Source: Amoebophrya sp. A120 | Lineage: Eukaryota > Protista > Dinoflagellata | Reading direction: 5' to 3' | Assembly: GCA_905178155.1 (NCBI GenBank) | Contig: CAJINV010000014.1 | Span: 426,012-490,011 of the forward strand | DNA length: 64,000 bases | Shown here: positions 4,118 through 63,910 of the stretch, one piece after another | Numbering within the stretch: the stretch's first letter is position 1 | Layout: every line of letters starts with the position of its first letter | Notes under the pieces: generated by a model | Databases searched by the model: none | What the model saw: the letters and a program-made list of their open reading frames with translations, nothing else | What the model was told of the DNA's origin: nothing | Made by a program: the position numbers and the translations under genes

Positions 4118-7100
4118 TTAGATCCCCGCAAGCGCGGTATCCTGACTGGCGTTATTTCCATCTGCGTCACTAGCAGGAGCATCTGTCCTCCCACCTCCTT
4201 GAGGTCGTGGGGCTGCATCGTCCCCGGGAGCAGCGGAAGGCAAGACGTCCCGCGACTGCTCCTGGTCCACATCCGCCACAACAGCGCCAGTTCCAGCCGG
4301 ATCGCTCTGCTGGTCGGCGCTCACTTCTGCGGTCGGAAAAACAGTGGTCGTGCGCTGTTCCTCAGCCACTTCCGCTTGAGCCGCAGAGGAAGAGGGCTCT
4401 GGTGTTACGGGTGCTGCCCGCTCCTGCGTTAAGTATTGTGCGAAGGCGCGTGCGGCGCGTGCTGGCTGTGCGACCCAGCTGAGCGGACCAGATTTGGCAG
4501 CCGCCTTTGAGCGCAGACCGAGGAATTGTTGTTCATCTCCTCTATCTGGAGAGATTCGCCCCCGCGGTGCGTCAGCCTCAGACGTAGTAGGTGCTTCAAC
4601 TACATTTTCTTCCTCGAGAGCATCCTCACGAACTTCCTGCGCTGGAGCGGGCGGTGCTGCCGGAGCAATCTGCTCTCCGGACTGGTCATCAGCACGCGGA
4701 GCACGGGCAGCTCCAGGTCCAGCATCAGCTGCCGGACTTGTGATATTACCTTCTTCTTGCGATGAGCAGGTTCTTGGGTCCGATGATGCAGCACCATTCT
4801 GGCCGCTGTCGTCCGGGGTCGGAACTGCAGCACGAGCACTCTGCTCGCCCACAGCAGCCGCTTCCTGTGCCGCATTTTCTTGGCCAGCCGCACTCGAGGC
4901 TTGCGGCAAAGGGGGTCGCGGGTCCCGGGCCAGCTGGTCGTGGTCCTCCTGCGGTGCAGGATGAAAGTGTTCTATTTCATCCGCGGCCTCTTCTTCCTGC
5001 GCCGTGGCCGGTACAAGAAAAGAAGATGCTGGTGCCGCTCCTGCTTCTTCTATCGGTGTAGCTGCGGCATAGGAGGCCGCATCACCATCAAGAGGGCCTT
5101 GTCCTCCGTCGTGCACCGTTGCGCGGCTTTCGTGTTCTTCGTCGCGCTGCACCAGCGTGGTGGAGGCGGGACGACCAGAGCCAGAGGACAAAGGGTCCCC
5201 GAATGATCCTAGTACCGCATGATCAACTTCTTCAACTACAACGGGAGTCGCAATCAGTGCGTCAACTCCCTGTTCGTCTACAGCAGCGCGCTGAAGATGC
5301 TCCTGCGCAACATATTCTTCTTCACCAGCCTGCTCGGAAAGGGCTGGAACAACGCCTACGGCAGCGGACGCGTCGGCCGCTGCATCATGAGCTTCCTCGA
5401 GTTCTTCGTGAGGCTGAGGAGCAGGAGGAAGTCCTCCACCATCGCCATCCTCGGCAGCTGCAGTGGCTGTCTCGGGCAGCTCCGGAGGTTGAACACCAAC
5501 ATCCTCTGGCGCCACTACCGAGTCACCACTTTCAACCCGCAAAGACAAGCTTGTTTCCGGGGTCGCGTCACGGTGCTCCAGAATTGGACCAGCTCCACTC
5601 CGCGGCCCGATTCCTCCTTGCGGGTAGGTCGCCCCGGGAGCCCGTTGCGTCGTCTCCGGCACGTCGTCCCGTCTCCGGTTTTCTGGGCGGTTATGTTCCT
5701 TCGTTTCGGACACGATCAGGCCCCAGTAGTCGTAGTAATCCGCAGCAGGCTTGGGCCGCACGATCGCTTCGTATCCTGTGCAAAAATTCATCGCATAAAG
5801 TCGCACTCGGACGAGCAGCTGCCGACGTATGTTCTTCAATATTGTTTCACAGCGTAGTTGTGCAGCACGGAGTAGATGCAGTTATTTCATAGCAACTCGT
5901 TTTTCTTTCAGCCCGTAGCCACAGCATGACACGTTCACCTTTGATTCTGTTGTGCAAAACTTTTTGATTTGCGAAAATTCAAAATTTGTGTATACATAAG
6001 TACATCGTGCAACCCGCCTTAGTGCGATCTTCACACGACAAGAAGTCTTGCACTGCATACGGCTCTAGCGCTGGTGACGGAAGAGTGGTCATGCTGCATT
6101 TCCCTCCACGCCACGTCAAATTTGAGGTTGCGTTGCAGCCGGGAAGCAGAAGCCGGTCGCGCCGCCGCCGGGGCCGGTAGCGTAACTGTTCGACGGTCCA
6201 ATCGTGGTGTGGAACAAAAAAATATCATCGCAGTCACATTTGGATTTGCAAATTATTTTGCATGACGATAATATGGATAAAATTGATGCTCGAAATAATA
6301 ATGAACAATGCTCGTACAACTTGTGTTGCACAGACAACATCACGAAAGAACTCACGTGCGTATGCAGTTTGACCGTGATCATTCATTCTATCGCGACACC
6401 AATGAAGCCAGCTTCTTTCGCAATCTAATCTGCAAAAAAAACGGACAAGTGCTTCGTGTGAAGATGTTTTTTTTCTTAATATCAACGGTTGGACCAGATG
6501 ACGCGTCGGCCAGTGTGTGTTCTCCCACGACTTCGTGGAGGGTCAGATCCACGCCCAAACCGAGCGCAGCCGCCACCCACAGCTCCGTGGGCTCGAGGAA
6601 GCCACCGGGCTCCAAGACTCTTCTGTGCTCGTCGTCCTCGGTAGTGCGCGGAATGTTGTTGCCTGATAGGGATAGATTTCCTACTGCGTCCCGTGGCTGA
6701 AAGTGGTCCAGGGAGTCGGCCACAGAGATGTAGCAGAGGTACGCGAGCTGCATGCTCGTCAAAAGTTGCTGGTTTGCTTGCTTCTCTCTATCAGTCCAAT
6801 CTCTTCGTCTTCGTTCTTCAAGAACTTCGGTGTGAGGCGGTGCAAAAACTTGGCACCACCTCACACCCTGGGCTTTCCCTCTTGTGCGCGTGGCCTCAAA
6901 GTTCGGGTCAGCAAAAACGCCCCTCGCTCCTCTCCGGTATCAAGTGCAAAAGTGTCTGGGTCTGGAAGATTGCAACTTGTCATGCTGTTTTTGGACGCTA
7001 AAAAAATTGCATTGCATGACCAGCAAGAGGGGTGCAGTTTGTGCCTCACGGACAGGGCATTTCTCATGCCGAAGGTGTATCAGGAAGGGTTCTAAAAACC

Positions 7101-10100
7101 TGTGATGGTAGGGCATACATCACAGACAATCAGGGGTCATGAGAAATGTGCATGACAAATCTTGCATTCTTCCAGACCCGGACATATTTGCAGTTCATAT
7201 CCGGCGCCGACCTGCAACTCGGACGTACGGATTGGCGCGCTCAACCACCATGTCGAACATACTCACAGTGTTCCTTCCTAGAATCATTCGGCCATTCAGA
7301 GGCATGATGTTTCTGCCGCTCCAAAAGAGATGGCTTGCGGTGTTGTCCCGCTGGCCCGAGAAAGCATCCATGAGAATCTCCGCCAGGTGGTGCGCGAGCA
7401 TTAATCGAAATTCACCTATGTTTAGTATTCCTGCCAAGAGGCCCACGGGATAGGATAGCGAGCGGTCTCTGTTTCTTAAATGCGGGGCGCACCACTCGGC
7501 GTGCGCGCCAGCTTCGGTGCACTGTCGCTTCAAGGCGATCAGGCCCCCATCACCCGATCCGGTCGGGGCTGCGCGTTGTAGTTGGTAGTTTATCACTGGA
7601 ACGGCCACCTCGCCCTCGACCGCGGAGGAGGCGTCAGACTGTTGGCCGCCCGGAGTGGCGCCCGAGGTCTGCGTGTGCTGCGATTCCTCCGCCCTCGCTG
7701 CAGCCCACCGCTGTCGCCGCTGCGCCGGCCAGTTTAGTTCCTTGTTTCCCGGCACACTCAAGCCTCGGTAGTCGAAGAAGTCGTAATTAGACCGAACGTC
7801 GGAGGAAGTCGCGCCGGCCGCCTCCAGCCTAGTAAAGTTCTTACAGGCCACCTCAAGGAGAATGTTGGCCTCCAGATCTTCTACTTCCCGGGCCGACTGT
7901 GCTGGGAATCGGGCGGAGGAGGAGGAGGAGGAGGACGAAACACGAGGCGCGGTTACTAGTACAGGAGTCGTAAGTGGCACCGGCGGAGGCCCCGGCAAAT
8001 GATGAAGCTTGAGGCGTGCGCGGTTGGTTTCCGTTGCTGCAACCCAGGGAGCAGTTTGAGGGTCCGCATCCGCGTCGGTGTCCGAATAGAGGTTCAAGTC
8101 CACCCCCAGTACCAGCGCGGCGGCGACCCACAGCTCGGCTGGATCCAGATAGCCTCCCGGCGCAACGAAGTCGTACTCCGCCACCTCCGAGGTGCGGGGG
8201 AGCTTCTGCCACGACTGCAATTGGGCATGTGCGTGCTCGAGTGGGATGTTGTTCGGGTCCGCCTTTCGGAGTTCGTCGGGCACCGAAATGTAGCAGAGGT
8301 ACGCAAGCTGTGCCGCTGAGAGCTGGCGGTCGGCTTTGATTTCCCATTCGCTCCAATACCGCTCTTTCATCTGCGCCTCTGTCTTCGGGCCCGTAAATGG
8401 TTTGGGGCTACGGTCTTGGCACCAGAACAATTGCCAGTCGGTCCTACCCCTTGCGAGCGTCGCCGCGTATTGCGGATCTCGTCCTCCCATGAGGCCTGCA
8501 TTCGAGGCCGCGCGTCGGTGAACCGCGACAAACATGCTGATAGGAGGTGCCTCCTCCACGAGGGGGCCAGAAGGCAGACGAGAATCTCCCCCGTTTACAC
8601 TAGTTACTAAACCCCGCTCCGACCAGAGCACTCGGCTCTTTGCAGCGGCGGGAAATAGACTATCTTCGTCGGTGGACTCCTCCCTAGAGAGCAAAATCTG
8701 TGCCAGTTGGTCGGCCAAGTGTCGGCGGAACCACTTTGTGTTCTGGACAATCGCGAGCGCCTGAATTTGCGTCCCCGCCCCGTCGGCGTAGCTCCTTTCT
8801 TCCGCAAGCAATCTTTGCACATGACTTTGACACAGATTCATGTGGTCCCCGGTCAGACACTGTTGCTGCAGGGCAATGAGGGCATTGTCCGCAGACCCGG
8901 TCGCAGCGCTGCTCTGGAACACAGCCGGCACGGCTGGCTGTTGCTGCTGCTGCTGGCTGCTCTGGCCCGCGCCAGTTGCCGCTGACGACGCTCCTGCACC
9001 GGAAGGCCCATTTGCGCCCTGAGACCCGCTGCTCGCCAGACCCGCACCGGACGTCCCCGAACCGCTTGCCATGCCTGTGCCTGAGGATCCTCCGCTCGCC
9101 CCGCCTGCACCGCCTGCGCCAGCACCGCTTGCGCCTGAGGATCCTCCGCTCGCCCCGCCTGCACCAGCACCGCTTGCGCCTGAGGATCCTCCGCTCGCCC
9201 CGCCTGCACCGCCTGCGCCAGAACCGCTTGCGCCTGAGGATCCTCCGCTCGCCCCGTCTGCACCGCTTGCGCCAGCACCGCTTGCGCCTGAGGATCCTCC
9301 GCTCGCCCCGCCTGCGCCAGAGGAGCCAGCACCGCCTGCGCCTGAGGATCCGCCGCTCGCTCCACCTGCGCCAGAGGAGCCAGCACCGCCTGCGCCGGAG
9401 GATCCGCCGCTCGACCCGCCTGCGCCAGACGAGCCAGCACCGCCTGCGCCGGAGGATCCGCCGCTCGCGCCGCCTGCGCCAGACGAGCCAGCACCGCCTG
9501 CTCCGGCCGCCCCGCCGGCCTGGCCTTGGTTGCTCTGTCCATCTTGGCCTTGCTGATTGTTCTGTCCGCCCTGGCCTTGGCTGTTCTGTCCTTGGTTGCT
9601 CTGTCCTTGGTTGCTCTGTCCACCTTGCTGATCTTGGTTCCCGGCATGTCCTTGGTTGCTCTGTCCTTGGTTGCTCTGTCCTTGGTTGCTGTGTCCTTGG
9701 TTGCTCTGTCCACCTTGCTGACCACCTTGGTTTCCAGCACCGCCTTGTTGACCGCCAGATTGTGCTCCGCCTACTTGCTGACCTTGGTTAGGACCCGAAC
9801 CGCCTTGGTGACCGCCTGGAGGCATGCCGGCGGCTCCCGGTAGTTGCTGGCTCGAACCGCCGCCGCCTTGCAGAACCTGGTGCGGCGGGAGTCCCCCTCC
9901 AGGCTGCTGCGGCGGCAGTCCACCGTTCGAACCCGGAGGATGCGGGAGCACCGCCACGTCCGGCACCTCCGGTAGGTTGTGCAGCTTTCGCCACCCGTCC
10001 ATCAGTTTCTTGAGCAACAAGTTTTTGAACAGCTTCATTCCGCCGCCAGGATGATGTTGATTCCCTGGAAGGAGCGCCGCGGCACCGGCTGCTACGTAGT

Positions 10101-11679
10101 GCTCCGGCGATTCATAAGCGATGCCGTCCCTGCCTACAGCTGGGTATTTACATAGCTGCTGTTGCTCCTGCGAGGACGAGGGATCCACAGTTTGATGCTG
10201 GTTTCCACCAGAACCACTATTGCGCCTCCGGCAGAAGAAGAATCTCGGCGGGGTGGTCGCGTTCAGAAACGCATCCTTTCCGCTCACAGCATTACCTCCC
10301 TGCTGGTGTTGATTAGCAACACTACTTCCCGCTGCTCCGGATCCATTCCAGGCCCGCACAAAAGCTAACAGTGGGTTGTTCGGAAACACGAGCGGGCGGC
10401 GCTTGTTGTGATTGTTATTTTCAGCATTCTGGTGAATGACAACAGGAGAACTTCTGCTGGTGTCGCGTCCAGTTGCTTTATCTTGCTGCTGCAGAAAGGA
10501 AGTGGTTCTACTAGAACTTCCCATGTTCTTGTTCATCATCTCCGCATGAAGATGATCATTGGACTGGCCATGAAGATGAACTACGCGCGCCTGGCCCGGA
10601 TGTTCTTCCACCTCAACCTCTTCTCCCGTCGCGTCATCGAAGCACCGCTGCTCGTCACACAGCGCGGCCACGGCGGCATCGATGTCGACAAAACTGCGGC
10701 CGGAGGAGACCAGAATTGGCTGCTTGTCGCTACGCGACTGCTCCCCCCGTTGAATCTCGGCGAAAATCGGGTCTTGCTGGACAAGCTCATTCAACTGCTG
10801 TAGTTCCGCGTGGTTCTGCAGCGGGGGCCCCTGCGTACCGCCGTTGATAGTTGGCCCCGGAGGCTGTTATGCAATGCAAAAGCATCTTGGCTCTCGTACA
10901 GTAATTGCATTGTACTGCATATTGATCATGAGGACTACTTAAAGCTAGTACAACAACGTGGTTTCGTTTACTCCTAGACCTACGCTCTGAGTCAGCATTT
11001 TACAAGAAGCACCCTTTTTCCGTGTCTGAAAAGAATTATCCCCAATGTTGTCATGCAATTCCTACAACGTAGTACGATGCTTTATTGCAGTGCATAGAGG
11101 TGGTCCTTGACCCGCTTGCTCGAAAACCCCACACCCGTAGCAAACGCCGACCGCGATTCCGGCCAGGAGCACGACGCTTCCCAGAGAAATCGCCGCGATC
11201 AGAAGCCAGTTTGGGCGGGAAGCGGTTTTTCCGCCTTGCAGCTGAGTGGCTGCACGACCACGCGCATCTTGTTCTGTCTTCTTGTTGTACTGGTTTTTCT
11301 GCTTGCCGTGGTAGTTTCCGTTTCCCCCATCCCCATCCTCCTCTTCCCCGAACGGGAACGGCAACGGCTTTGGGTTGTGGTCATGTGACAAATTACCCTC
11401 GGTGCTGTCGGAGGCGAAACTCGGAGGCTGCTCCACGTCCACCGCGCGTTCCTCGCCGGCAGCCAGAATCATGTAAGACCCATGTCCAGACGATTTGGTC
11501 ATCATGGTGGTATCATGTCCACCAAAAGCGTGATGCTGAACACGAACACGAACACCGTCGTTCTTCCGGAGCATAAAATCGTCCTCGTGCTCGAAAGCAC
11601 CATCGCGCTTCCGAAAAGTAGTAGCGCCGCCGCCGGGGCGGGGGGCCATCGTGATCTTACTTTGATGTCCCGGCTGCAT
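4118..11679 (-). CDS. Tandem membrane-protein gene, copy B: N-terminal TM anchor, G/Q/S repeats, two copies of an uncharacterised ~350-aa domain, acidic Ala/Pro-rich tail; exons ~11097-11679, 7200-10862, 6482-6932, 6060-6202, 4118-5766
   Basis: ORFs 11062-11709, 7195-10794, 6388-6864, 6031-6237 and 4118-5839 join in frame when four introners (+5 nt each) are removed: GPPPPGPTING, GRRRRGARGVFADPNF, GPTVELDRRTVTLP, SARAAIVRPKP. Motifs YLCYISV.D, GG(Y/F)L(D/E)P.ELWVAAAL.LGVDL.L and DY(R/W)GL occur twice. Confidence 0.75.
5772..6059. mobile_element. Introner, degenerate DR (copy B specific)
   Basis: tatcctgtgcaaaa ... tcttgcactgcata; removal +5 nt gives in-frame RA-AIVRP; paralog C is uninterrupted here. 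Confidence 0.6.
6208..6481. mobile_element. Highly degenerate introner (copy B specific)
   Basis: Left tgtggaacaaaaaaatatcatcgca vs reverse complement of right tattaagaaaaaaaacatcttcaca (17/25 match); removal +5 nt gives in-frame PTVELDRR. Confidence 0.45.
6938..7199. mobile_element. Introner with perfect 5-bp DR tccgg
   Basis: TIR tatcaagtgcaaaagtgtctgggtctggaagattgcaa / ttgcattcttccagacccggacatatttgcagttcata; DR at 6933-6937 and 7200-7204; same family as 52199-52453. Confidence 0.9.
9080..9720. repeat. Coding tandem repeats in copy B: ~48-57-bp GGSSGAGGAGSSGAGGAS-type units and 15-bp GQSNQ units
   Basis: Repeated gcctgaggatcctccgctcgccccgcctgc and ttgctctgtccttgg. Confidence 0.9.
10868..11096. 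mobile_element. Introner shared by all three paralogs
   Basis: tatgcaatgcaaaagcatc ... gatgctttattgcagtgcata; DR gctgt/gaggt; joins the TM exon in frame to ORF 7195-10794. Confidence 0.8.
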
Positions 11680-32000: not shown

Positions 32001-32039
32001 GATATGCAATACAGATTTACTGCACGTGCACACGTACAA
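26011..32039 (-). CDS. Large low-complexity protein with coiled coils and a C-terminal TM segment (both ends uncertain)
   Basis: ORFs 28905-32039 and 26011-28635 fuse in frame (GKSSS|TVVSNNKHKSSSAAALDEDIN) after removing introner 28686-29132 + 5 nt; hydrophobic FCLFLFLLGLSMIFYALW. No family recognised. Confidence 0.7.
28686..29132. mobile_element. Introner with ~55-bp TIR, perfect DR actac
   Basis: tatggcggcgtcaacaatctcaccactatagtatatcaaaaaaaaatt / aattttttttttgatatactatggtggtgagattgttgacgccgccata; DR 28681-28685 and 29133-29137. Confidence 0.92.
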
Positions 32040-46767: not shown

Positions 46768-49519
46768 CTATGCGCCCCCGATTTTTCCCGCGGACGCGCG
46801 CTCCTTTTCTGCCGAGACCTTCAGGGAGTCGATCAGGAGGTCGATCTTGCCCATCCATTTTTCCAACACGTTGTCCAAGTGTTGCCACTCCTTCTGCCCG
46901 AATTTCCGCTGCAAGACGGACTGCACGGTCAAGATTTGCCTGACCTCGTCGATGCGGCCCACCAGCACATTGTAGTGCGTGGCCTCGATGATCAGATCGT
47001 CGACATCCTCGATCTTCAGCGCCTCCCGGATCTCCTTCAACGGGACCTCTTGCCTCCCCTCGCACAGACTGCACAAAGTCAGAACGCGGAGCTTGTTCTC
47101 AATGCAGGATTCGGGGACCTGGTGGAGTTCCGATAAGAAATTGTTTGGGGTATTTCAATAGCTATGTTGAGATATTTTGCGTCTCACTGTACTAGCTAAC
47201 AAGAAGACCAGGAAATTGATTTCCAATTGTCCAGGTTGGCGGCGCCAGATACTACGTGCAAAAATCTATCAAAAAAAGGGGAATATTATACATCCAGCTC
47301 CTGCAAAAATCCGGTGTGTTTTGACTTAAAGGCGGCCAGGTCGGCAATGGTGCCGCTAACGAAGAGCTGCAAAAGTGCAACCATCTTTGCGACCTTGTCG
47401 TTGCTTTTGGAAGCCTTCTGCAGAACCTCAATTTCGAGGAGACCCTCGACCTGTGATAATTCAAATTTTCAAGGGAATCTATCTCGCAAAATGAATTGCT
47501 GCGAACAAAATGTTCTTGGAAAATCAGTAACAATTTCACTTTCATCTTCGAGCAGTTCCCGCTTCCGTCTGTTGTCATGCATCTATATGCATATTCTTTA
47601 CATCGTCATCGTGATCGTCCTTGTGGTAAGATTGCAGTACCTCAAACACGCTTGGCAGCTTGATGACTTCTTGCACGAAGAGTTTTATCGCGGCGAGACT
47701 CCTGTCGTTGACTTCCGTTTCGTATCGCAGGTATTTCTCCAGCCACTGGAACGCGAGCTCCTCCGGCAGGGACGCCATGGAGAGCTTGACCTCGGGCTTC
47801 AGTTTCGGGATTTGCATGGCGATCAGATGGTAGAGCTCCTTCTTGTCTGCCCGCTATCCTGAGTAAAAACGTACCCACACCAGAGTCAGGATGGGGATTT
47901 ATTTGCAACACAACCCTAGGAGTTTTGTGAGTCACGCATGACAAGCCACACAATGCAGTGTAGTGCAGGTTAGCAAGTGCAGCCGCATCACAGATTCATC
48001 TGCTCATCCTGTTCACAGCATCACAAATTCCAAAACACGATTAGAAATGGCTCTCATCGGGATGCGCGTTACAAGTCTTCCCGTCTTTGCAAATCTGCAT
48101 TACAACTCTGGCGTGGGTACGTTTTTACTCAGGATACCTCCGCGTTGAAATCCTCATTGTCTTCCAGATGCTGTGCCCACGTGCTCATCCACGTTTCGAA
48201 ATCATTCAGGTACACAACCATTTCCTGTTGATGGATAGTTTTTTTCTATATTCATTATCTATCTCTATCATGCATGACAAACCCACATAATCGATTCTCG
48301 GTATTGTATCATTACGCAACACAAACAATTGTTTGAATACGTGAAAGAGCTCGTTATCCGCTGCGAAGTTCAAGACGCCGAAGAAAATTTTCCTGGAGAC
48401 TTCTGCTGCTACTATCCAAGGAAAGCACTGTGTTAGTCGTGTAGGCGTCTTGGAGTGACAGGATGACACATCTTTTGCTCTTCAAGACAGGGAAAATGTA
48501 GAACTGTCATACATGGCTAGTACGTGCTCGTGCACAGCACGCGGACATGGCAAGAGAATGAAAACTTCATTGGTGTGGTTTGCATGACAAGAACTGTAAT
48601 CCCTATTCTTTTTGCAGTTTCTGCATCACATACTTAATACACGTAAACACAGTTTATTTTTTCTTGCATAGTTACTCCTGTGATGGGAATACTGTTGTAT
48701 GTCTGCATCAGCATCTTCAATCGAAGCTGAGGGTATTCCTGTCCGGAAAGAAGCAGCTCGACGACCTGCGAACGTGAAGTGTTGTCAAATTCAAGAGAAT
48801 GAAAATGGATATGTTACAAGTTGTAAAGTAGCAAAACAAAAAACTTCATCAAGCACTATCGTGCAATTAATGTCGGAGTAAAAACAAATTTCTAATGCAC
48901 ACCACGTCAAATAGGGCACAACTGCAGGGTAAAAAAAACCTAATATACCTTCGAAACTGCGGCTTGGAGTTTTGGGACGGTATCCATAGCATTCCCGAGC
49001 ATGTAGATCAGCGTTGAAAAGTAGCACTCGATCTGTTATTTTGTTTTTCGTAAATAACTCTTCACGTGGGTGTAGTGATGCAATAGACATACAGCAGGCA
49101 CTGCTCCAAGAGCAATATCTTGCACGAAATATCACGTCCTGGCCGTCCTACTAGTTGTAGAAAGCTCCAGTACTGCCATTCTGAAACTGAATGCACAAAC
49201 CAGCACTGGAACAAAATAAAACCTGTTTATTGCCAATAAGCACCAACACACAGCATACCTTTTCCTGCACGCTGCCGATGCTGCTTCCCCCTACTCGCTT
49301 CTTTTCCTGCTGGGTGACGATGAGGTCGCATTGTTCCGCGAAGAGCTGGAAGATGGCGTACCCGTTGTCTTTCTCGATTTCCGAGACAAAAGACTGTTCA
49401 AACTGCTCGATCTTTGCGTCTGGCGTGTTGTTATCTTTCATCAGTTGCTGGATCATCCGAGCCACCGGGAACACGTCCTGGTTTTGGTCGTCATTGGGGG
49501 CAGCGATGATCTTCGACAT
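46768..49519 (-). CDS. EIF3M: Eukaryotic translation initiation factor 3 subunit M (PCI domain), multi-exon
   Basis: Hand-spliced segments PQLRLKMLMQTYN, KLPSVFEVEGLLEIE, LLQLFVSGTIADLAAF, ENKLRVLTLCSL and GRIDEVRQILTVQSVLQRKFGQKEWQHLDNVLEKW match the eIF3m pattern as I recall it; one internal exon boundary (~48.8-49.1 kb) is unresolved. Confidence 0.82.
47855..48136. mobile_element. Introner with near-perfect 32-bp TIR; also spliceable as GT-AG (47854-48137)
   Basis: tatcctgagtaaaaacgtacccacaccagagt / actctggcgtgggtacgtttttactcaggata; four gcatNaca motifs inside. Confidence 0.9.
48413..48691. mobile_element. Decayed introner-like intron, GT-AG compatible
   Basis: tatcc...gaata ends, internal gcatgacaag and gcatcaca; TIR otherwise lost; frame restored. 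Confidence 0.45.
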
Positions 49520-50596: not shown

Positions 50597-53500
50597 TTAT
50601 ACCCCCCACGCACCTCCACCAGTTGCAGCAGGCGACTCGCCGTTGTCGAGACTGTACGGGCTAGGGCTACCGTATGTGGAGGCACCTTCCCCTCCGGAGC
50701 CTAAAGCATAGTAATGCTGTTCGGCGACCGGAGCAATATGCTGTTGGTGGTTGTATTGTTCGTACTGGTTCGACGGTGTGTAGGACGATGCTGCGCTTGG
50801 CGTCGGCGTTGCTGCCTGGCTATGATTGTTGTAGCCACTATAGCCAACATTGTGGTAACTATTATAGCTGCCCTGCCCCTGCTGCTGCTGGTCATAATGA
50901 AAATTATTATCATACTGCCGCTGTTCCTGCTCCCAGTGCTCCCGTTGCTGTTCCTCCCACTGCCTCTGTTGTTCCCGTTGGTCTAGCCACTTCAAGTTTT
51001 TTTGCAACATCCGCTCCGTCCAAAAGTTATTAAGAGGAAAAATCCCCCCTCCCCATATCGAAAAGGTATGCTTCCGGAAATTTGTGATGCTGATTTGCGA
51101 CCTCAAATCACGTCTGTCTTGCAAGAAGGCAACTCGACAAGCTACGCAGCATTGTGCAGGCGGTTTGTGATGCTGATGGGCCTACAGCACGGACGTTTCT
51201 CATGCTAGACGCCTAGGCCAGAGCCTCTCTACTCAGGCTTAGTATGGGGCTGCATTCCTCTCCAGCAAGACAGATCTTATTTGTGTCCGCAAATCCTGCA
51301 TCAGAAACTTCGTTTTGATATGGGGAGGGGGGAAGGGGATTTTTCCTGTTGATAAAAGTGCCGGTCTTGCACGACCCGAGCCTTGTACTTCTCGAACGTG
51401 CTACTGACGTAATTATCCACAGTAAATTTCCCGTACACGTACAAATGCAGTCTCTGCATGACAAAACTTGCCTTCAGTCCTAGTCTAGCATGACAAGTTG
51501 GACACTGCAAGTTAGCGAAATTTGCCATGCATTTTGTACATGTACGGGATATTTACATTGCATAATAATGGAGTGCATTCACCACCTCTTCCATTCCATA
51601 CCCATCGTAGTGCTCCTGCAACACCGCGCGTCCCTTCGGCGAAAAGTCGCAGGGTCGAAGGTGGTCAAAGAGGTAAGCCTGCAGCTTTTGTAGCAGAGGT
51701 GCGGCCGCAGCGGATGAGGATGTCGTCTTGGCCGCGCCGTTCTTTCCCGACACAGTGACCGGCTCCTGGGGTCCGACGTTCAGTGTGGTTTTCAAGAATT
51801 CCTCGAAGCTGTCCTCTTCGTTCGAGGTTTCGGTCAGCGCAGACAGCATGCTGTTCGGCTCCTCGAGCTGGATATTCACATGACTTTCGTTGTTTGCTGC
51901 ACTTGATTCTTGTGGTCTTGTACCACCAGCGGCGAGGATGTCCTCGACAGAAGCTGCTTGTGAATGATCGCTTTCCAGATCATGACCGTCGGCACGACAA
52001 GTTGTACTTGTTCCGTCTTGTTTGCTCTTCTGTTCTTCCGCTGCGAGAAGTAGTACAACTTCGTTCTCCCTTTTCTCTTCGTACCCCAGTAAAATCGCTT
52101 TCCGCACGTGCTCAAACAGCCCGCCTGACAACGTTTTCACAAAATTCTGGTCTTCTTTGTAAGAACCTCCCCACAAGGTTTCGTAAATGGCCCTCTCGTA
52201 TCAAATGTAAAAATGTCTGGGTCTGGAAAAATGCACGTTTGTCATGCTTGTCTGGCATGACTCTTTAAATCTGTCATGCACGTTACCCAAGAGCTTCGTT
52301 TTTCTGTGATGCAGAAACGCAGTTTGTCATGCAGAATAGGCAACACCTGGAAGCTCAGAAACTTGTGATGCTGAGCCAGCATTTGTGGCCTCAGCATGAG
52401 ACGCCACCCAGCATCACAAGTTTCCAGACATCCAGGGATTTTTACATTTGATATCTCGACTGCACTGGACCCCGCCAACGTTGCGAAGTCAATCAGGCTG
52501 CCCAGGTCCCGCTCCGGGTTCGCCTATGGATGTGTCAGGATCGAAATCGACAAAATTGAAAGATTTGCGATGCATAAAATGTAGGGCACTTCTGAAGGCC
52601 TGTATTGGGGAGCAGGCAAATGGGACCGATTGCAAGCCTCTTTAGGGGTATGCAATGCGCTGCCAGAGTAGCTGCACGACAGGAGGAGTCTTCTTTGCCC
52701 AAACAGCATGACAGACTGGATCTGGGTGCTCCCGAAATTTGTAATGCGCCACTTGGAAACTGAGGCTCTAACTGACATCGATTTTGTGCATCACAAGTTT
52801 TTCGATTTTGTCGATTTCGATCCTGACACATCCATATCGCCAATTTGCAGAGGATTCGCTCCACGGTGCGGATCAACACCGCGTTCTTGAACCTCTCCCG
52901 CTGTTCCTCCTGCAGTCTCTTCTCCCGCTCTTCCGGCTTTTCCTTACTCGTATTCGCCTCGAACATAGCGACGGCCCGGGACAAACCGACCACCCGAGAC
53001 ACGAACAAGGACTCAAAGTGGCGCTTCATAGCCAGCAAGTAAGACACGTCGACCGCGGCGTACGCGAGTAGAATTCCCTGCATGGGCCGCTCGGCCCAGA
53101 CGTGGTAGCCGCCGCCGCGGCGGGGGTCGTAGAGAGCTTTCCCGCGCTCCTTCAAATCGGAAAACACGTCGCCGAGGTTCACTTCTTGATGGTGTGCGTT
53201 ATTTTGCTGGAGGTTCATCTGTTCTTCTTCTTGCGAAGATTTTTCATGATGGGCGTTTGAAGAAGCTGCATGCTTTTCTGGTGGTACAACCTGGTGGTCG
53301 CGACTTGTTCTACTAGCGTCCTCGAGCAGATGAGGTTGCACAGAGTTCGGTCCAGGACTAGCACCGGAGCGGCCGGTCGTATGGCTACAACTAGGCGCAG
53401 GAGTTGTACTACTAGTCGCCTCATCAAAGTACGCCCCGAGCGCTTTGGGCAAGCCTTTCAGGTGTCGCGCGTAGTTTTGCCCGACCGACTCGGATATGCA

Positions 53501-56500
53501 GTGTAAAAGTATCGCACTCGTATAAATGCCAGACTAGCATGACAAATCTGGTTTCTTACGTATTTTAGCATGACAAACTCAATTTTCATGCTGAGGAAAT
53601 TTGTAATGCATTTATACGAGTACGATACTTTTGCAGTTCATATCGGAGAGCAGGAACGAGATCTGCAGGTCGTACACGTTCCGCGGCATCACGCCGAAGT
53701 GGAAAAACACTGCCTCAAAGTCCTGCCGGCAGTCGAAGAGTACTTTTTGGCACTGCTCGCTCTCCAGCACGGTTTTCAGGTTGGGGTAACAAATGTCGTC
53801 GTCAAACGCCTTCTTCTGCAGCTCCACGAGGTCGACCAGGTAGACGGTTTTCTCCGTTTTCAGAGTCGTGGGTGGAGATATAGATATTGTCGTACTAGCG
53901 GTGTTGCTGACACAAGAACTTGAGGTGCTGCTTCCGGTGTATTCATGAATTTGGTTGTACACGTCGGGGTTTTGGTCCCTGTGAGCAGGGTCCAAGCAGA
54001 ACGGCCCGTCTTTGATTTCCGTTTCCACGGTTTCCTCCACCATGATCTGCATCAGGCACACCTCGCCGGACTTTCCCAACTCCACGCCCTCGACGTCCAT
54101 ACCAAGCAGGCGGAAGGGCTCCTCTCGTGAGGACGATGCTGTTGCTAGCCCACGACCAGGGTCTTGATCTTCGGTAGTTCCTGTTCTACTTGTCGTATCT
54201 CCTTTTATTACAGAACGAACAGAGGATGAAGATGCATCACCTTCGGTCGTAACGGAGGTGGTAATCAAAGAACCTTTATTCTTGTCGTCCTTCGGCGAAG
54301 TAGATGTAGATCTAGAAGGAGTTGCCAACAATCTTTCCGCCAGCTTCTGGACTCCAATCACCGACCCCACCCAGACTATCCGCGGCAGGTGAGCGCGCCA
54401 AATTTTCTCCTGCTCAGAGATCTTTTGCCTCTCCGCCTCCGCATCGAGGAGCTCAGAAGATGCAAAAGCGCCATTTGGCAAGTTTGCTGCAGCTGCACCA
54501 TTCAGCTGCACCCTTTTCAGCAGCTCATCTGTCTTTCTCCTGGATTCCGGGGAGTAGGGCAAAAACCCGCTCGAAGGATTATTTGAAGATGTAGTCGTTT
54601 CCACTCCTGCTCTTTGTCGTTGATGCGCCGACGTCGTCGAGGAAAAGTCGCGCAAATCCAGTTTCTTCGGCATCGGCGGTCTCTCGAATTTCGGGCTCTC
54701 GAGCTCTTTCCCGGTTCGACGATCGATGATTTTGGCGAAAAAAGCCGCGTGAAGAAACCCCTTCGCGTCTCCGGGCGTTAGGAAAACCCCGTTGCGCGCC
54801 TGAAAAAAACGGAGTCCCGCCTTCAGCGCCAACGCAAAATCCACACAAATGATCGCGTCGCAGTCGTCGCGCATGCCGGATATTACGGTTTTTGTGGTTG
54901 ATGGGGTGGGTGCTGTTGAGGTAATCATTTTCGACGTATTACTGGAGGTCAACGCAGACGTTGGCTTTGTTACGATTTGAGAACGTCCTTCATGGCCTTC
55001 GGCTGCAGCACTAGCAACAGACGAGTCCTCGGGCTTCATCTTCTCGGTAGGGGGCTGAGCCTCTTGATGAGGTGGATCTGCTTCTTCTTTCACCTCCTCG
55101 TCCTTCATCTTGAAAAACCCCAGATCTTCCTCGTCTGGGCTATCTCGTCCAGAAGATGACTTGGCAAAGAAGTGAATGTGCTGCCTGGACATTCGGGAAA
55201 GACCACCGGAGGATAAGATATCCGGAATGACGGCGAGGTAGGTTCCGTGGTAAAGGAGGGGGGTGGAAGACGAAGTAGCTGTTGGGGGCCCGTTCTTGCT
55301 GCTGCTTGGTACCACATCGTTCTTTTCGTTTTCAACACCAGCACCGCGAGGGGCTACCTCTGATGAAAAAGCGGAAAACACGGGCGTCATCAAGGCTTCC
55401 TCGTTGATCATGTGGTCCGGCAGGCTGTGGCCCTGCACAGCTCGGACGAACCAAGCGTGCTGCTGGTCTTTTTCACCTCCACGACCTCCCGCAGCAGTAG
55501 GAGCGTCGTCATCTTCTTCGCCTGGAGGTCGTGCCTCTTCATCTACATTTTCTTGCCCAAGAACATCTACGACTTCTTCCCGGTGCAGCAGCTGAAACCG
55601 CTGCTTGTCATTGTGAACGCACACCCAATAGAGCTCCTCGAATGTCAGAGGCACCACGACCGGAGGAGCTGTGTCTTCAACCTTGTTCTGTGTGAGATCC
55701 GCATTCGTACTAGTACCCGCCGTACTGGTGACATAATTTTGTGTCTTGCTTGTTTGCTGTTCAACTTCAAGCCCTTTGGTCGTTTTAGTTCTACTAGCAC
55801 CACTTGTACTAGTACACCTGACTATCTCCGGCATACCCAGGAAGCCTCTGTAGCAGTCCAGTAAGTGTCCGCAGTGCACATACCCATCTTTTGAAATCTT
55901 CAGCTTCTGCCGGTCCGCGCGGTGTCTCAGCGTGGCGGTAAGTTCCCTGCTCACCCATTCGCCTCGGCCTTGCGGGATCTTGTTGTACGCCGATCCGCGG
56001 CCCGCAGGGGTGTAAGCGGTGATGGAGAGGGAAACTAAAACTATTTGTATTTTTCCGGCGTGCTCTCGTGCGTTATTTGTTTCTGCACCATCTTCACAGC
56101 CCGACACAACAGTCCACTCCGCCTGCTCGGGCGGGCAGTAGACTTTTGCGCCGTTCACGTAGACAAAAGCCTCGGATTCCGGCACGGTAGTCGTAAGGAT
56201 GGTTTTTGTCGTGATAGACACATCCGGGCTGCTCGGCGCGGAGAGCGGTTCTTTCACAGGAGCACTCGAGGTGGTGGAGGACATCAAAGCAGTCGTACTG
56301 TCAGTAACAGTGTCGCTCGTGGTGGTACCTTTGCACTGCACGCAATCCTCGAGTAGCTCCCACAGAACGAACTGTTGGTGTTGATTTTGGGGACCAGGTT
56401 TTACTTGTGGCGTTCTTTTAATATCATCTTCTTCCGCACGGGGACAGGAACTGCTTGACGCTGACGAGGAGGAGGCAGCAACTTCTAGTACTCCTGCCGG

Positions 56501-59690: not shown

Positions 59691-62600
59691 TCACACTTGA
59701 AACGGGTGTTTGTTCCTCACTACTACGGCTTTCTGTGGTCTGGTCTTCGCGCTTTTCGGTGACCTCGAAGCGGATGAGCCGGCAGTCGAATTTTTGTACA
59801 ACTTTCCGTCTGTTGCTGCAGCGGCGCCAAGGGCGAAATTAGTATCCGGGTGCGGCATTTGTTGCGCCGCGGCCATTTCATTTGAAGATACCACGTTGGC
59901 TCCTGCTGTGGGTTGCTGATATTGTTGCTTTGCTTTTGCACCTTTCATCGTCGGGTGAGGCAGCGGCAATTCCAGATTCTGTTCAGCTGCGGAGGTGGAG
60001 CCGCCACCAGCACCTGCGGTCGTGTAAAAATACGGAGGCTGCTGCTGCAGACCACCGCTCGACGAGTCGTGTGATGCTACCTGGTCGGAGTCGGAAGCCC
60101 CTGCTGCGAGAGGGAGTTCAGCAACTACGCCAGCGGTTGTTGTTTCACCGACATAATTTAATGCTCCAGGAGCGGCCCCACCCCCGCCCTCTTTCTGATG
60201 TTCCTCCCCGCCGATAGAAACTTCCTGCAGCCGGTATTGCAGAGACTCGATCGTCATCTGCGACTTGTTGATAGCATTCATGCAGGCCTCAATCTGGGCG
60301 TGAATCGAAGCAATCTCATGTCTCCGGGTTCGTGACCTGGAGCTCGTCGCCCGACTCACGGTGTTCATCTTCGTACTCTGCGACGTTTGATGTCGTGGCC
60401 CACCTCGCTCTGGCAGTACCTCTGGCGCTTCGTGCTGGTGCTGATGTGGTGGGGCTCCTACACCCGCTCGTGGTCCAGGGGAGCCTTGCACATGCTTATG
60501 CTGCTGCTGCATTCGATGCTGTGATGAAGGAGACTGATGCGGCAAACCTGCGACGTTGTCGTGAAGACTAGCTGCAGCTTTATATCCCGCCGCGGGGCCC
60601 GCAAAAAGTGATGTCCCGTCGTCGGAGAAAACGGGGCTGAGCGGTTCCGGTTCGATGGGCATTTTGGTGGCAAAATTTGCCGTGTTCGGGGGCGAGTTCA
60701 TCACTTTCGGGCGGCACGACGAAAACGGATTTCGCAGGTTCTCGTCGGAAATGTGCGCAAACTCGGTTTTCAGCGCTTCCTCCTCCCCGGTTGGTTTGTG
60801 GTTGGTGGCGGCTAGTAGATTATTGCTTTGCAAGTGATTATTTGCAGCTTCTGCAGCAGTTCCAACATCCGTAGCACCAGGATGTTGCCCACCACCACTC
60901 CGCGCCGGATCTAGTACGTGATCTACTTCTCCCCCACTTCTTGGCTCTTGCTGGTCCTGCGTTGTACTACTACTGCCTCTATACGCATTGGGTTCGTCCA
61001 TTTCCCCCGCGCCCGCACCATTCAGCGTCCACTGAAGCGAGTTGTCATAGTTTACCACCCGTTGGTCCGGGCTCGTGCTGCGCGTCTGGTTTATGTTGTT
61101 ACTGCCCATCTCCTGCCACCAGTGCCGGTGTTGGGACTGCTATCCTGTGCAAAAGTATCGCACTCGTAGTGAAAATTGCAATCATGCATTACAAATCTTG
61201 TTCCCATGGCAAATCTGCATTACAAATTTCATTTCTCATGCTGAGGAAATTTGTAATGCATTTATACGAGTACGATGCTTTTGCAATTCATAACTGCTTT
61301 CCGCGAGCGAATTTCTGGTCCACATTGTACTTCGGCGACATGGACATAGACTGGTTTTGGTTGTACTGTGGCTGGGTGTAGGGATTCATCGGGTTATTTT
61401 GGTTTTGATTCTGCATTTGGACGAGTTGCTGATGCTGCTGTACCGCCGGACTGTGATTCATCTGCTGGTGCTGCTGGTGGTGCAACCCCCCGCCTCGCAA
61501 AACCGGGGACTGGGAAGAAAACTGCCGCTGTTGTTGGTCTGCTTGCGGGGGTCCAGCAGCAGGCTCCTGCACCAGGTAAGGATTGTAGTTGTCCTGGTAG
61601 GTCGTGGTAGGCGAAAGTGGATGAAGATGTTGATCTGCTGGTGGATATTGAGGGTCAAGAACACCGGTAGTCGAATTGCAAGGCGGCTCGCCAACAACTC
61701 CACCTCTATCCGGCATGCTGTGTCCCCACTTGTCGCTGATCGCTCTTCTCCTCGCCTGCTCCGCTTCGTAAGCGTTCGCTGCCTGAATGTACCGCGCTTC
61801 CTGCTCGTACCTGTGCCGCGCGCTCTGCTCCTTGTACTGCTTTTCCCAGAGAATCTTCTCCTGCTGCGAGCGAAACTGATAGTTGTTCACACCTTGTTGC
61901 TGCGGACTCAGTTGCAGGTGCGGTGGTTGCGAGTGGTTCTGATTTTGATTTATTTGCGGATGATGTGCAGTATTAGCTGCATTTTGGTGTAATGACTCTC
62001 CAGGAAGCGGTACGGCGACGGTCGTTGTGTCTTCGTTGTTGCCCCCGCCCGCACCGAAATTGTTCGCTGAGCTACTCGTGTAGTCGTCCTCATCTGAGTC
62101 CAAGTCCGACCGGGAACTGCTGCAACTGTCGTCCTCCCCATCCTCGCCGACTTTCAAACTCAGCAGAGTCCGCTTCGTCTCCTCCAAGCAGCGCAGCTGC
62201 TCCTCTTGCTTCGCACGCTCCTGTTTCAGCCGTAAAAGCTTGTTCTGGATGTTCTGCAGGTCGCGCGCCACCTGCTCCTGCACCTTCCTCTGCGCCTGCT
62301 GTTCCTGGTGCTGGTGCTGGCCTGCGAGACCACCGGGCACAGGGGGTCCGTGCTGGTGTTGCTCGCGGTGGTTGATGTTGCTGTTCACCTGGTTGTCTAT
62401 TTTTCCCGCTGCGCCTTTATTGTTGTTGCCTTCCTGCTGTTGGTCACGATCGTTGCCTGGCGGCCCTCCGGGTGCAGCTCCAGCAGGTCCAGCATTTGGT
62501 ACTACCTGTCCACCAGCTGCACCTCCCGGCCCGCTTCCCCCGCCCCGCGGCGCTACCAGCTGCCCGAGGCCCAAGCTCGAAAACTGGTCGACGTACATGG

Positions 62601-63910
62601 CCTGCAGCTCCTGTCTCTCAGCGCTGTCGTAGGAACTCCCGCAAACCACCATTTTGATCATGGTTTTGATTTTGCGCCGGATGATCGGCAGGTGCAGCAT
62701 CTCGCTGATGCTGGGCCGGTGCTGCGGGTTCACGGACAACAGGGATTTTATCAGCGTTTGGATCTCCTTCGAGCACTTTACGTTGTTCGGAATCGGGGTG
62801 AACTTGCCCTTCAACACCTTGATATGGCGTTCTCAACTGTTACATTCTCTATTGTTACATGGATTTGTGATGCAAGAATGGGAAAAGTGAAAAGGGGGCA
62901 CTGCGCGTCTTGCATGACAGATCTGGCGCAGATTATCAGCCTGCTTGGCCCTTCCAGAATTTGCCATGCAGAGCAGCAGCTTGATCCTGTAGATGATAGA
63001 GATAGTGGTAGTTTTGCATGACAAATCGTGTGACAGTTGAGAATGTAACGTTTGAGAATCCCATACTTGACCGCCAGCCCGTTCAAGCTGTTGGCGCCGA
63101 ACGCGTGCTTCCCGCAAATCAGCTCGTACAACACGCACCCGATGCCCCATATGGGATTCTCAAACGTTACATTCTCAACTGTTACATGATTTGTCATGCA
63201 AGAACAGCAATAGGGAAAGGGGCCGGCTTGCAATTCTCGCATCACAAATTCGACACAGATTTAGATGTTGTTTAGCCCTTCGAGAATTTGTCATGCGAAG
63301 CAGCTTGATGGTCTGGCGGCTCATGGTCAATTTGCATGACAAATCATGTAACAGTTGAGAGTGTAACGTTTGAGAGCCCCATACCCCAGATGTCCGACTT
63401 GTAGCTGTAGGAGGCGTTCTTGAACACTTCGGGGGACATGTAGAAGGGGGTCCCGATCTGCGTGCGGGCCAGGTAGTCCTTGCTGCCTTCCAGCACCTTG
63501 GCGATCCCGAAGTCCCCGAGTTTGATCATGCGGTAGTGGGCCGGGGGGAGCGCGACCAAGTGGACCGCAGCACTGTGCGGGTTTTGGTGTTGCTGGGTCT
63601 GCTGCGCGGCGGCCAGGATGCCCGAGTGGAGAAAGATGTTCTGCGTTTTCAGGTCCCGGTGCAGAATGCTCCGCGCGTGCAGAAACTGCACGGCCGCCAC
63701 GATCTGAATCAGCCAGTCAATCAGCATCGGCTCCTCGGCGGCGGACTGGATGGGCTGGGACTTTCGGTTTTTCTGCAAGTACGTGTACAAATCACCGGAA
63801 TCGCAGTACGCCATCAGAATGCAGAGGTGGTCGCCGTGGAGAAAGTTGTCCCGGTACGCGACGATGTTTGGGTGCCGAATTCCCGCGAGCAGGGCCACTT
63901 CTTGCTCCAC
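59691..63910 (-). CDS. NEK: NIMA-related (NEK) Ser/Thr kinase with long low-complexity tail, 5' end off window; exons 63384-63910, 63066-63144, 61293-62817, 59691-61135
   Basis: HPNIVAY, HRDLKTQNIFL, KLGDFGIAKVL, TQIGTPFYMSPE; spliced SDIWGIGCVLYELICGKHAF and LAVKVLKGKF; AG acceptor at 63911-63912. Confidence 0.92.
61141..61292. mobile_element. Introner, perfect DR actgc
   Basis: tatcctgtgcaaaagtatcgcactcgta / tacgagtacgatgcttttgcaattcata; join GKQSQHRHWWQEMGSNN. Confidence 0.92.
62823..63065. mobile_element. Introner, perfect DR cttga
   Basis: tatggcgttctcaactgttacattctc / gagaatgtaacgtttgagaatcccata. Confidence 0.92.
63150..63383. mobile_element. Introner with ~52-bp TIR, perfect DR cccca
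   Basis: tatgggattctcaaacgttacattctcaactgttacatgatttgtcatgcaa and its inverse; interrupts kinase DIWG|IGC. Confidence 0.95.

What the first reader, a model, noticed from the sequence alone, without database searches (positions are those of the whole stretch)
6938..63383. Cross-family internal motif GCAT(G/C/T)ACAA in otherwise unrelated introners
Seen: elements with different TIRs carry 2-6 copies of gcatgacaa/gcatcacaa/gcattacaa or close variants. They often read tttgtNatgc just inside the left TIR and gcatNacaaa just inside the right TIR, though 53495 and 61141 show the opposite arrangement. Examples: 63150 (4 copies), 52199 (about 6), 47855 (4), 53495 and 61141 (3 each), 51414 (2), plus 6938, 52525 and 62823. 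It persists in decayed introns (48272, 48582) and looks rare in exons by eye. 28686-29132 lacks it and has ttgagcta repeats instead. Inference: a shared binding site, in either orientation, for a transposase or for a host factor that marks these introns for removal. That would be a recognition code separate from the TIR sequence.
Basis: partly seen in the sequence, partly recalled or inferred. Interest (0 to 1): 0.75.

Follow-up and report, generated by a model that had tools for sequence, protein, structure and literature searches.

The report
Helix-phased DNA code in mobile introns
The many unrelated-looking families of transposon-derived introns in this Amoebophrya-type genome all carry one short motif spaced in step with the turns of the DNA helix, which likely marks docking sites for the still unidentified protein that moves them rather than a signal for splicing them out.

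Summary
Confirmed. GCAT[G/C/T]ACAA occurs 32 times in the window (2.3 expected); 29 copies lie in TAT...ATA elements with 5-bp target duplications and 3 in other introns. The elements match the published Amoebophrya A120-type introners, and transcript-like contigs skip exactly element + 5 nt in 10 of 10 cases. In 577 kb of a related genome, 350 of 355 such elements carry the motif, across 14 families whose interiors do not align once it is masked. Sites form conserved islands phased at 10.6 bp: whole turns apart in the same orientation, half turns when inverted, and mostly 32-33, 41-44 or 52-55 nt from the ends. Three motif-less elements are still spliced exactly, the motif has no strand preference on the mRNA, and it decays after insertion. 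So it is likely a DNA binding array used in transposition, like hAT subterminal repeats, and not a splicing mark. The protein was not found, and target-site preference differs between families, so one shared enzyme is doubtful. I found no paper reporting the motif. This scan has noted the motif, its phasing and hAT-like candidate partners before, on other DNA of this genome.

The parts
6938..7199 (.). Introner, family F0 (TATCAAnTGYAAAA..GTCTGGGTCTGGAA ends), TSD TCCGG; exact sites 6977-6985(-) and 7150-7158(+)
   Evidence: removing element + 5 nt leaves a stop-free minus-strand frame; no RNA laid here
10868..11096 (.). Old TAT...ATA intron shared by three tandem gene copies (699-924, 10868-11096, 21142-21360); one exact site 11048-11056(-), degenerate in the other two copies
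   Evidence: the 21142 copy is skipped as 224 nt
14984..15422 (.). Older element, TSD 4/5, exact site 15216-15224(-)
24721..25205 (.). Decayed TAT...ATA element with no motif site, still removed exactly (490 nt = element + 5)
   Evidence: (4 of 4 runs, one sample)
28686..29132 (.). Young motif-less element (61-nt TIR, perfect TSD ACTAC, three TGAGCTA); spliced as 452 nt; the key negative control
   Evidence: (2 of 4 runs)
47451..47640 (-). Canonical GT-AG intron with one exact site (47572-47580) in poor flanking context
47855..48136 (.). Introner, family F4; six same-strand sites starting at element positions 51, 82, 131, 164, 212, 243 (gaps 31, 49, 33, 48, 31); spliced as 287 nt
48225..48340 (-). 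Canonical GT-AG intron with two motif sites (48272 exact, 48316 variant); possibly an element remnant
48413..48670 (.). Decayed TAT...ATA element, TSD 4/5, sites at 48582 and 48623; spliced as 263 nt
51028..51354 (.). Introner, family F3 (AGGAAAAATCCCCCC ends), TSD AAAGT; six PWM sites; spliced as 332 nt
51414..51564 (.). Introner, family F9; sites at element positions 43F, 75F, 109R; spliced as 156 nt
52199..52453 (.). Introner, family F0, TSD TCTCG; sites at 41R, 73R, 106R, 126R, 165R, 213F; spliced as 260 nt
52525..52836 (.). Introner, family F7 (TATGG..TCAGGATCGAAATC ends), TSD TCGCC; sites at 41R, 182F, 215R, 264F; spliced as 317 nt
53495..53642 (.). Introner, family F1 (TGCAAAAGTATCG ends), TSD TCGGA; sites at 43F, 74F, 107R; spliced as 153 nt
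61141..61292 (.). Introner, family F1, TSD ACTGC; sites at 46F, 77F, 111R
   Evidence: frame restored on removal; no joint shown
62823..63065 (.). Introner, family F5 (TATGG..TTCTCAAAC ends), TSD CTTGA, in a protein kinase gene; sites at 43R, 90F, 139R, 194F
63150..63383 (.). Introner, family F5, TSD CCCCA, same kinase gene; exact sites at 42R, 90F, 139R, 185F

Best explanation
The motif (core GCA[T/A][G/C/T]ACA[A/G], extended TGCATBACAAAT) is a conserved, helically phased site repeated inside non-autonomous TAT...ATA DNA-transposon introns, and it likely works on double-stranded DNA as an array of binding sites for the DNA-binding domain of the transposase clade that mobilises them. SHOWN: the elements have TAT ends and a 5-bp target duplication; they are removed from transcripts as element + 5 nt; all 14 multi-copy families carry the site; same-direction sites lie whole helical turns apart and inverted sites half turns apart; the outermost site sits about 3, 4 or 5 turns from the end. 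INFERRED: this geometry would put all bound proteins on one face of the helix and in register with the cut end, helping an oligomeric transposase load, bend the 110-320-bp element and pair its two ends, as hAT subterminal repeats and Tn7-type end arrays do. Copies that keep the array would go on transposing, so selection acts on mobile lineages and the array decays after insertion. The 'families' would then be separate MITE lineages served by related enzymes with one binding specificity but different TIR and target preferences. Splicing would rely on the TAT-ended hairpin and not on the motif.
For: Enrichment: 723 exact sites in 86,118 bp of elements against 8.4 +/- 3.1 in shuffles; 350 of 355 perfect-TSD elements have at least one PWM site, 339 at least two. 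Not plain ancestry: with sites masked, only 5 of 91 family pairs align, over 20-37 nt and four of them in the TIR; sites are conserved islands in diverged spacers. Phasing: best period 10.6 bp, R = 0.50 on 136 site pairs, above the maximum of all 2,000 nulls; R = 0.46 without the 29-35-bp pairs; 0 of 2,000 orientation shuffles reach it; 13 of 14 families positive. With one family from each of six conservative supergroups, all 72 combinations peak at 10.4-10.6 bp, p <= 0.0035. Phases at 10.5 bp: 0.98 same direction, 0.54 and 0.42 for the two inverted layouts. 18 of 19 outermost TTGT..ATGC-first sites lie at 32-33, 41-44 or 52-55 nt, one at 46 (R = 0.81). DNA rather than RNA: 423 versus 367 sites by strand on the mRNA; 26 elements show only one strand and 29 only the other, of 219 with a strand call; the middle bases of the outermost inverted pair do not co-vary for pairing (family F0 49 of 176, 77.8 expected). 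Not needed for splicing: 21142, 24721 and 28686 have no site and are removed exactly. Selection on mobile lineages: motif/spacer change ratio 0.04-0.35 on internal branches, 0.30-0.62 on terminal branches in five families; motif mismatch rises 0.043, 0.059, 0.106 as the TSD goes 5/5, 4/5, 3/5, like the inner TIR (0.033, 0.077, 0.101), while the terminal TAT stays at 0.011, 0.017, 0.024. Precedent: Hermes BED domains bind subterminal repeats in both orientations (PMC10368747); CAST TnsB-site spacing follows the helical pitch (PMC10201428); hAT5 elements make 5-bp TSDs (PMC12730594).
Against: No binding protein was identified: no transposase family among 113 of 119 long ORFs from the related loci or 12 window ORFs, and no long TIR element with matching ends. 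A one-sided target motif (T-n-G at -15/-13 from the TSD centre) is strong in F0 (133 of 175) and F1 (31 of 43) but at background in F4, F5 and F7 (3 of 16, 1 of 10, 2 of 11; controls 11-17%), so one enzyme for all families is unlikely and a shared host factor fits as well. The window alone does not show significant phasing (17 pairs, R = 0.36, p = 0.10), and family F4 is out of phase (-0.09). The motif stays more conserved than spacers even on terminal branches; pooled over all copies with an imperfect TSD its mismatch rises by 0.031, against 0.066 for the TIR (computed), which allows some constraint after insertion or a detection bias. Two canonical introns carry it. Sites fill the whole interior, not only the subterminal zones. 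Farhat et al. found no transposase in A120. Family F0 inserts 58 sense to 31 antisense (p = 0.006).
Confidence: 0.55

Rival explanations
1. A host sequence-specific DNA-binding or bending protein binds the phased array and is co-opted by several different transposases, each reading its own TIR and target preference (the role IHF plays for CAST elements).
For: Same phasing, strand symmetry and decay data. Families that share the motif differ in TIR and in target-site preference. The spliced, TAT-ended 28686 element uses other repeats. IHF precedent (PMC10201428, passages).
Against: The motif is nearly absent outside element-derived DNA: 61 of 1,213 exact sites in 423,717 bp (0.14/kb) and 0 PWM sites in 8,918 bp of intergenic DNA, so there is no sign of native host sites. 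No candidate protein.
Confidence: 0.25
2. The motif marks these introns for removal, either as an RNA splicing enhancer or as a DNA mark that recruits the non-canonical splicing machinery during transcription.
For: All 32 window sites are in introns or frame-breaking inserts. It occurs in 2 of 7 GT-AG introns. Residual conservation on terminal branches and in old copies. U1 snRNA was not found in A25/A120 (PMC7789003).
Against: 3 of 10 RNA-supported non-canonical introns and 5 of 7 canonical ones have no PWM site. No strand preference on the mRNA. Period of 10.4-10.6 bp with a half-turn shift for inverted sites. No co-variation for RNA pairing. The site decays while TAT is kept.
Confidence: 0.1
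3. The motif is a functionless relic of one ancestral element, spread by internal duplication and recombination between families.
For: Some families are distantly related before masking (F3-F7 70% over 116 nt, F2-F11 66% over 131 nt). All share TAT ends.
Against: Sites are near-invariant while spacers are saturated inside families. Masked interiors do not align. Phasing holds across six supergroups with different numbers and layouts of sites.
Confidence: 0.05

Closest known systems
Introner elements (IEs) of Amoebophrya sp. A120 (Farhat et al. 2021, PMC7789003; Gozashti et al. 2025, PMC12130899)
   Same: Non-GT-AG introns of about 110-320 nt with terminal inverted repeats starting TAT, mostly followed by seven variable bases and an A run, flanked by short direct repeats; many families; no internal coding capacity.
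   Different: In the passages, discussion section and supplement text I read, neither paper describes an internal cross-family motif, its helical phasing, or a one-sided target motif. In the 21 A120 rows I saw of Gozashti's family table, the finer classification reads 'Unknown' for all.
hAT transposons with subterminal repeats (Hermes/BED, PMC10368747; hAT5 group with 5-bp TSD, PMC12730594)
   Same: Short TIRs plus many short internal repeats in both orientations, bound by a domain separate from the TIR-cleaving core; a 5-bp TSD exists in hAT5.
   Different: Hermes repeats are 4 bp, arranged differently at the two ends; helical phasing was not mentioned in the passages read. Here one 9-13-bp site is shared by at least 14 families with different TIRs, fills the whole element, and the elements act as introns. 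No hAT transposase was found in my data.
Tn7/CAST transposon ends (PMC10201428, PMC9308760)
   Same: Several weakly conserved transposase sites whose spacing matters and follows the helical pitch; a host bending factor can assist.
   Different: Prokaryotic multi-protein systems with head-to-tail sites; here the elements are eukaryotic MITE-like introns with sites in both orientations.
IS3EU/GingerRoot (PMC10045372, PMC6839031)
   Same: TA...TA termini; integrase-like enzymes, of the kind hinted at for A120 family 38 in PMC12130899.
   Different: TSD is usually 6 bp and GingerRoot TIRs are 100-150 bp; here the TSD is 5 bp.
Emigrant MITE / Lemi1 (PMC1636448)
   Same: A MITE whose internal repeated motifs are bound cooperatively by the partner transposase.
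   Different: pogo-like, one family, repeats are copies of half of the TIR; not an intron.

Membership tests
Amoebophrya A120-type introner element | Terminal inverted repeat starting TAT, then about 7 variable nt and at least 3 As | tested here: met
   951 of about 1,000 ends of 509 copies read TAT; the A run is present in F0-F4 and F8-F12 and weaker or absent in F5, F6, F7, F14
Amoebophrya A120-type introner element | Direct repeat of 3-5 nt at the borders | tested here: met
   5-bp TSD: 9 of 18 window elements perfect; 354 of 509 copies perfect; 357 elements found with it, 0 in one shuffled set
Amoebophrya A120-type introner element | Removed from transcripts without GT-AG | tested here: met
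   10 of 10 non-canonical joints skip element + 5 nt (contigs of one sample, RNA status is the tool's guess, but the same contigs also skip 7 GT-AG introns); GT-AG possible in 5 of 159
Amoebophrya A120-type introner element | Host is Amoebophrya | not tested
   Inferred from intron architecture; no marker-gene phylogeny was run
hAT (hAT5) non-autonomous element | 5-bp TSD (8 bp in most hATs) | tested here: met
   hAT5 definition from PMC12730594
hAT (hAT5) non-autonomous element | Subterminal repeats in both orientations | tested here: met
   resemblance only, binding not shown
hAT (hAT5) non-autonomous element | Cognate hAT transposase with BED domain in an element with the same ends | tested here: inconclusive
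   None in 113 + 12 ORFs; only about 0.64 Mb was available. Earlier scan notes report hAT-like candidates elsewhere in the genome, unchecked by me
IS3EU/GingerRoot | TA...TA termini | tested here: met
IS3EU/GingerRoot | 6-bp TSD | tested here: not met
   RNA joints skip element + 5 nt in 10 of 10 cases
Cis-acting RNA splicing signal | Strand-specific on the pre-mRNA and needed for removal | tested here: not met
   423 versus 367 sites by strand; three site-less elements spliced

The most novel reading that the evidence does not exclude
Amoebophrya introners run on a two-layer code: one shared DNA-binding factor, host-encoded or common to several transposases, reads a helically phased internal array and licenses any sequence with TAT ends to move, while TAT-ended hairpins are read separately by an unknown non-GT-AG splicing route. 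New intron-making families could then arise almost freely from any DNA that gains TAT ends and phased sites, explaining thousands of unrelated families with no recognisable transposase.
Probability: 0.25. Interest if true: 0.85.

Novelty: new variant of a known kind. Interest (0 to 1): 0.62.

Why it matters
Amoebophrya holds tens of thousands of non-canonical, transposon-like introns, and neither the mobilising enzyme nor the splicing route is known. A defined, phased 9-13-bp site gives a bait for pull-downs and a filter for picking the true autonomous partner among candidate long elements. It also separates the mobility signal (internal array) from the likely splicing signal (TAT ends), which makes both questions testable.

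Tried and rejected
No whole genome is held for the window and the related loci have no searchable genome record, so nothing here is genome-wide. Three raw-read RNA runs did not cover the window's exons (0, 79 and 414 reads laid, nearly all partial): no test of splicing, strand or level. One of them (X9) shows the F0 end followed by different sequence with the motif starting at position 40, from 76 reads that may be one locus. The run search listed no holder on record as RNA. An initial idea of a 4-bp TSD plus one asymmetric base was dropped: it is a plain 5-bp TSD. IS3EU/GingerRoot was my first superfamily guess; rejected on TSD length. The motif as an RNA-stem extension was rejected: only 6-70% of motif bases pair with another site in predicted folds, against 74-90% for TIR bases, and there is no co-variation (at most 15 copies per family folded). 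A 16-bp lattice fits when orientation is ignored (R = 0.42), but the orientation-signed 10.6-bp model fits better (R = 0.50). Searches for an autonomous element (long TIR pairs; Pfam) and one motif-plus-end pattern in viral contigs found nothing. Rows left out: 2 elements over 1 kb; the window's three-copy old intron and 12 singletons from the PWM and phasing tests; families F9-F14 from the decay test; 275 of 494 junctions without a strand call; 6 of 119 ORFs; 6 joints the tool did not show; only 14 of 64 parts of the collection were scanned.
Full report
Observation. The exact motif GCAT[G/C/T]ACAA occurs 32 times in the 64-kb window, 17 on the plus and 15 on the minus strand, against 2.28 +/- 1.64 in 100 dinucleotide shuffles; the middle base is never A. 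An unbiased search for TAT...ATA inverted ends and reading of the sequence gave 18 elements (4,991 bp); 29 of the 32 sites lie in them. Nine of the 18 have a perfect 5-bp target duplication.

The elements are introns. Contigs of four runs from one sample, guessed to be RNA by the tool, show 17 clean skips in the two stretches laid: 7 GT-AG introns and 10 non-canonical ones, each of the latter exactly element + 5 nt (six further joints were not displayed). Nineteen of the 32 sites are in these RNA-supported introns. The other 13 are in six elements whose removal leaves a stop-free minus-strand frame, two of them in a protein kinase gene. The splice register within the 5-nt repeat cannot be read from these data. 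The architecture matches the A120-type introners of Farhat et al. 2021; I infer the host lineage from that and did not test it by phylogeny.

A larger sample. A scan of metagenome contigs with one family's end pattern gave 151 stored loci, 577 kb after removing overlap. They come from a related genome: best matches to the window are element copies at 73-93% identity, not exons. They hold 348 elements with a perfect TSD, plus 9 from the window; a locally shuffled copy gave none. These cluster into 14 multi-copy families plus singletons, and every one of the 14 carries the motif: 723 exact sites in 86,118 bp against 8.4 in shuffles, middle base G 402, C 192, T 129, A 4. The sample is biased to family F0 (178 copies), so the PWM was family-weighted and spacing tests used one consensus per family. 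350 of 355 elements have a PWM site. 1,152 of 1,213 exact sites in the loci lie in family-derived DNA, and the remainder runs at 0.14/kb.

Not explained by alignable interiors. Within families the sites are near-invariant islands among diverged spacers. Between families, unmasked consensus matches are mostly short and centred on sites, with a few longer weak ones (F3-F7, F2-F11). After masking the sites only 5 of 91 pairs align, over 20-37 nt, four of them in the TIR.

Geometry. Among 136 site pairs within 110 bp, same-direction pairs cluster at 31-33 bp (19 of 61) and inverted pairs at 15-17 and 46-50 bp. A signed periodicity test peaks at 10.6 bp with R = 0.50, above the maximum over 8-20 bp in all 2,000 random placements; it stays at 0.46 without the 29-35-bp pairs and vanishes when orientations are shuffled. 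The two inverted layouts have phases 0.54 and 0.42, summing to about one turn, as expected if one point of the motif faces the same side of the helix in either orientation (inference). Outermost sites in the TTGT..ATGC-first orientation lie at 32-33, 41-44 (one at 46) or 52-55 nt from the end (R = 0.81 at 10.5 bp); those in the other orientation lie 2-4 nt further in, with a weaker signal (R = 0.60, p = 0.047). With one family from each of six conservative supergroups, all 72 combinations peak at 10.4-10.6 bp. Against this: family F4 is out of phase, and the window alone (17 pairs) gives p = 0.10.

Mobility or splicing? Three spliced non-canonical introns (21142, 24721, 28686) have no PWM site, and 28686 is young, with a perfect TSD and a 61-nt TIR. 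Families insert in both directions relative to the gene, and the mRNA carries 423 TTGT..ATGC and 367 GCAT..ACAA sites; 55 of 219 elements show only one strand. The variable middle base of the outermost inverted pair does not co-vary for pairing. Using TSD decay as an age proxy in 509 full-length copies, motif mismatch rises with the inner TIR while the terminal TAT barely changes; on trees the motif is constrained 2-8 times more on internal than on terminal branches. These tests are not clean. End placement and TSD score are linked, ends show 0.19 mismatch in the 38 copies with TSD 2/5 or less, old copies with intact sites are easier to detect, and pooled over imperfect-TSD copies the motif decays about half as fast as the TIR. 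Some constraint after insertion is not excluded.

Mechanism. The best fit is a double-stranded DNA binding array that helps a transposition complex load and pair the ends of a very short element. Known systems work this way: Hermes BED domains bind subterminal repeats in both orientations, TnsB-site spacing in CAST ends follows the helical pitch and a host bender assists, Tn7 TnsB needs several weak sites at the right spacing, and the Lemi1 transposase binds internal repeats of its MITE. The 5-bp TSD fits the hAT5 group and not IS3EU/GingerRoot, which share TA...TA ends but make 6-bp TSDs. I moved from IS3EU to hAT after earlier scan notes reported hAT-like 10-26-kb elements with these ends; I could not check those. 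I found no transposase myself. One result limits the single-enzyme picture: a one-sided target preference, T-n-G at -15/-13 from the TSD centre (206 of 346 sites; both sides in only 14), is strong in F0 and F1 and at background in F4, F5 and F7. So either related transposases share a binding specificity (0.55) or a common host factor serves different enzymes (0.25). A splicing mark (0.10) and a functionless relic (0.05) fit worse.

Novelty. The elements are published. For the motif, searches found no report: 25 of 140 listed, none with the 9-mer; 20 of 23 listed, none with the word dinoflagellate; 2 papers, neither with 'internal motif' or 'subterminal'. The library lacks most subscription papers. 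What I saw of each paper: PMC7789003, abstract, passages, the whole discussion section on introns and a text search of its supplement (figures, including the repeat logos, not visible); PMC12130899, passages, a supplement search (file 14 not searched) and one part each of files 3 and 8; 10.1101/2020.10.14.339549, PMC12005148, PMC10045372, PMC12730594, PMC6839031, PMC10201428, PMC9308760, PMC10368747 and PMC1636448, passages only. This scan has already noted the motif, the 32/42/53 distances and the helical spacing on other pieces of the same genome; those notes are unreviewed and are not independent support. My phasing result was obtained before I read them. What this window adds is the motif-less spliced control, the decay and strand tests, and the family-dependent target preference.

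Verdict. A real, strong and apparently unpublished feature of a known element class: a new variant of transposon subterminal repeats, shared across families and helically phased. Interest 0.62.

Noticed in passing
insertion sites in L001-L151 and window: One-sided target-site preference T-n-G(-T) at -15 to -12 from the TSD centre, strong in families F0 and F1, at background in F4, F5, F7; its EM-oriented profile loosely resembles the AATTTGT half of the internal motif.
   Followed up: partly
window 32809-36272: 3.5-kb Foldback-like element with about 140-nt near-perfect inverted ends and 106 CATGA[G/C]A copies in tandem arrays; TAGACCTTA occurs on both flanks, out of register; no Pfam hit in its 316-aa frame.
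   Followed up: partly
window about 16060-17017: About 950-bp element with long degenerate inverted ends and two triplets of AT[G/T]ACAA at 8-nt spacing near each end: the motif core without GC, possibly a related binding code.
   Followed up: partly
window 37492-38020 and about 32002-32175: Two further TAT...ATA elements; 37492 has no motif site and no TSD, 32002 is decayed with near-matches. Splicing not shown.
   Followed up: no
family F0 ends (L loci, window 6938, 52199): TIR positions 4-7 vary among a few states (CAAA, CAAC, GCAT, CAAG, GGAT) independently at the two ends (48 of 178 identical, 49.5 expected); position 4 is C or G in 669 of 700 ends; the variant TATGCATTGCAAAA is itself motif-like.
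   Followed up: partly
family F0 insertions: Orientation bias relative to the transcript, 58 to 31 (p = 0.006, one of nine families tested).
   Followed up: no
window 1-4223, 10167-14314, 20429-23492: Three tandem copies (82-86% identical) of a roughly 10-kb gene unit that share one old intron and differ in younger insertions.
   Followed up: partly
L014:290-840, L019:505-1608, L025:632-1465, L051:571-1051, L052:3862-4492: Longer TIR pairs with matching or near-matching TSD, probably elements nested in elements.
   Followed up: no
L016:2635-6090: C-5 cytosine methyltransferase split over two frames in a 10-kb stretch free of introners.
   Followed up: no
window 53648-57556 (-): Gene with Tpt1/KptA RNA 2'-phosphotransferase and 3'-5' exonuclease domains, interrupted by five introners downstream.
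   Followed up: no
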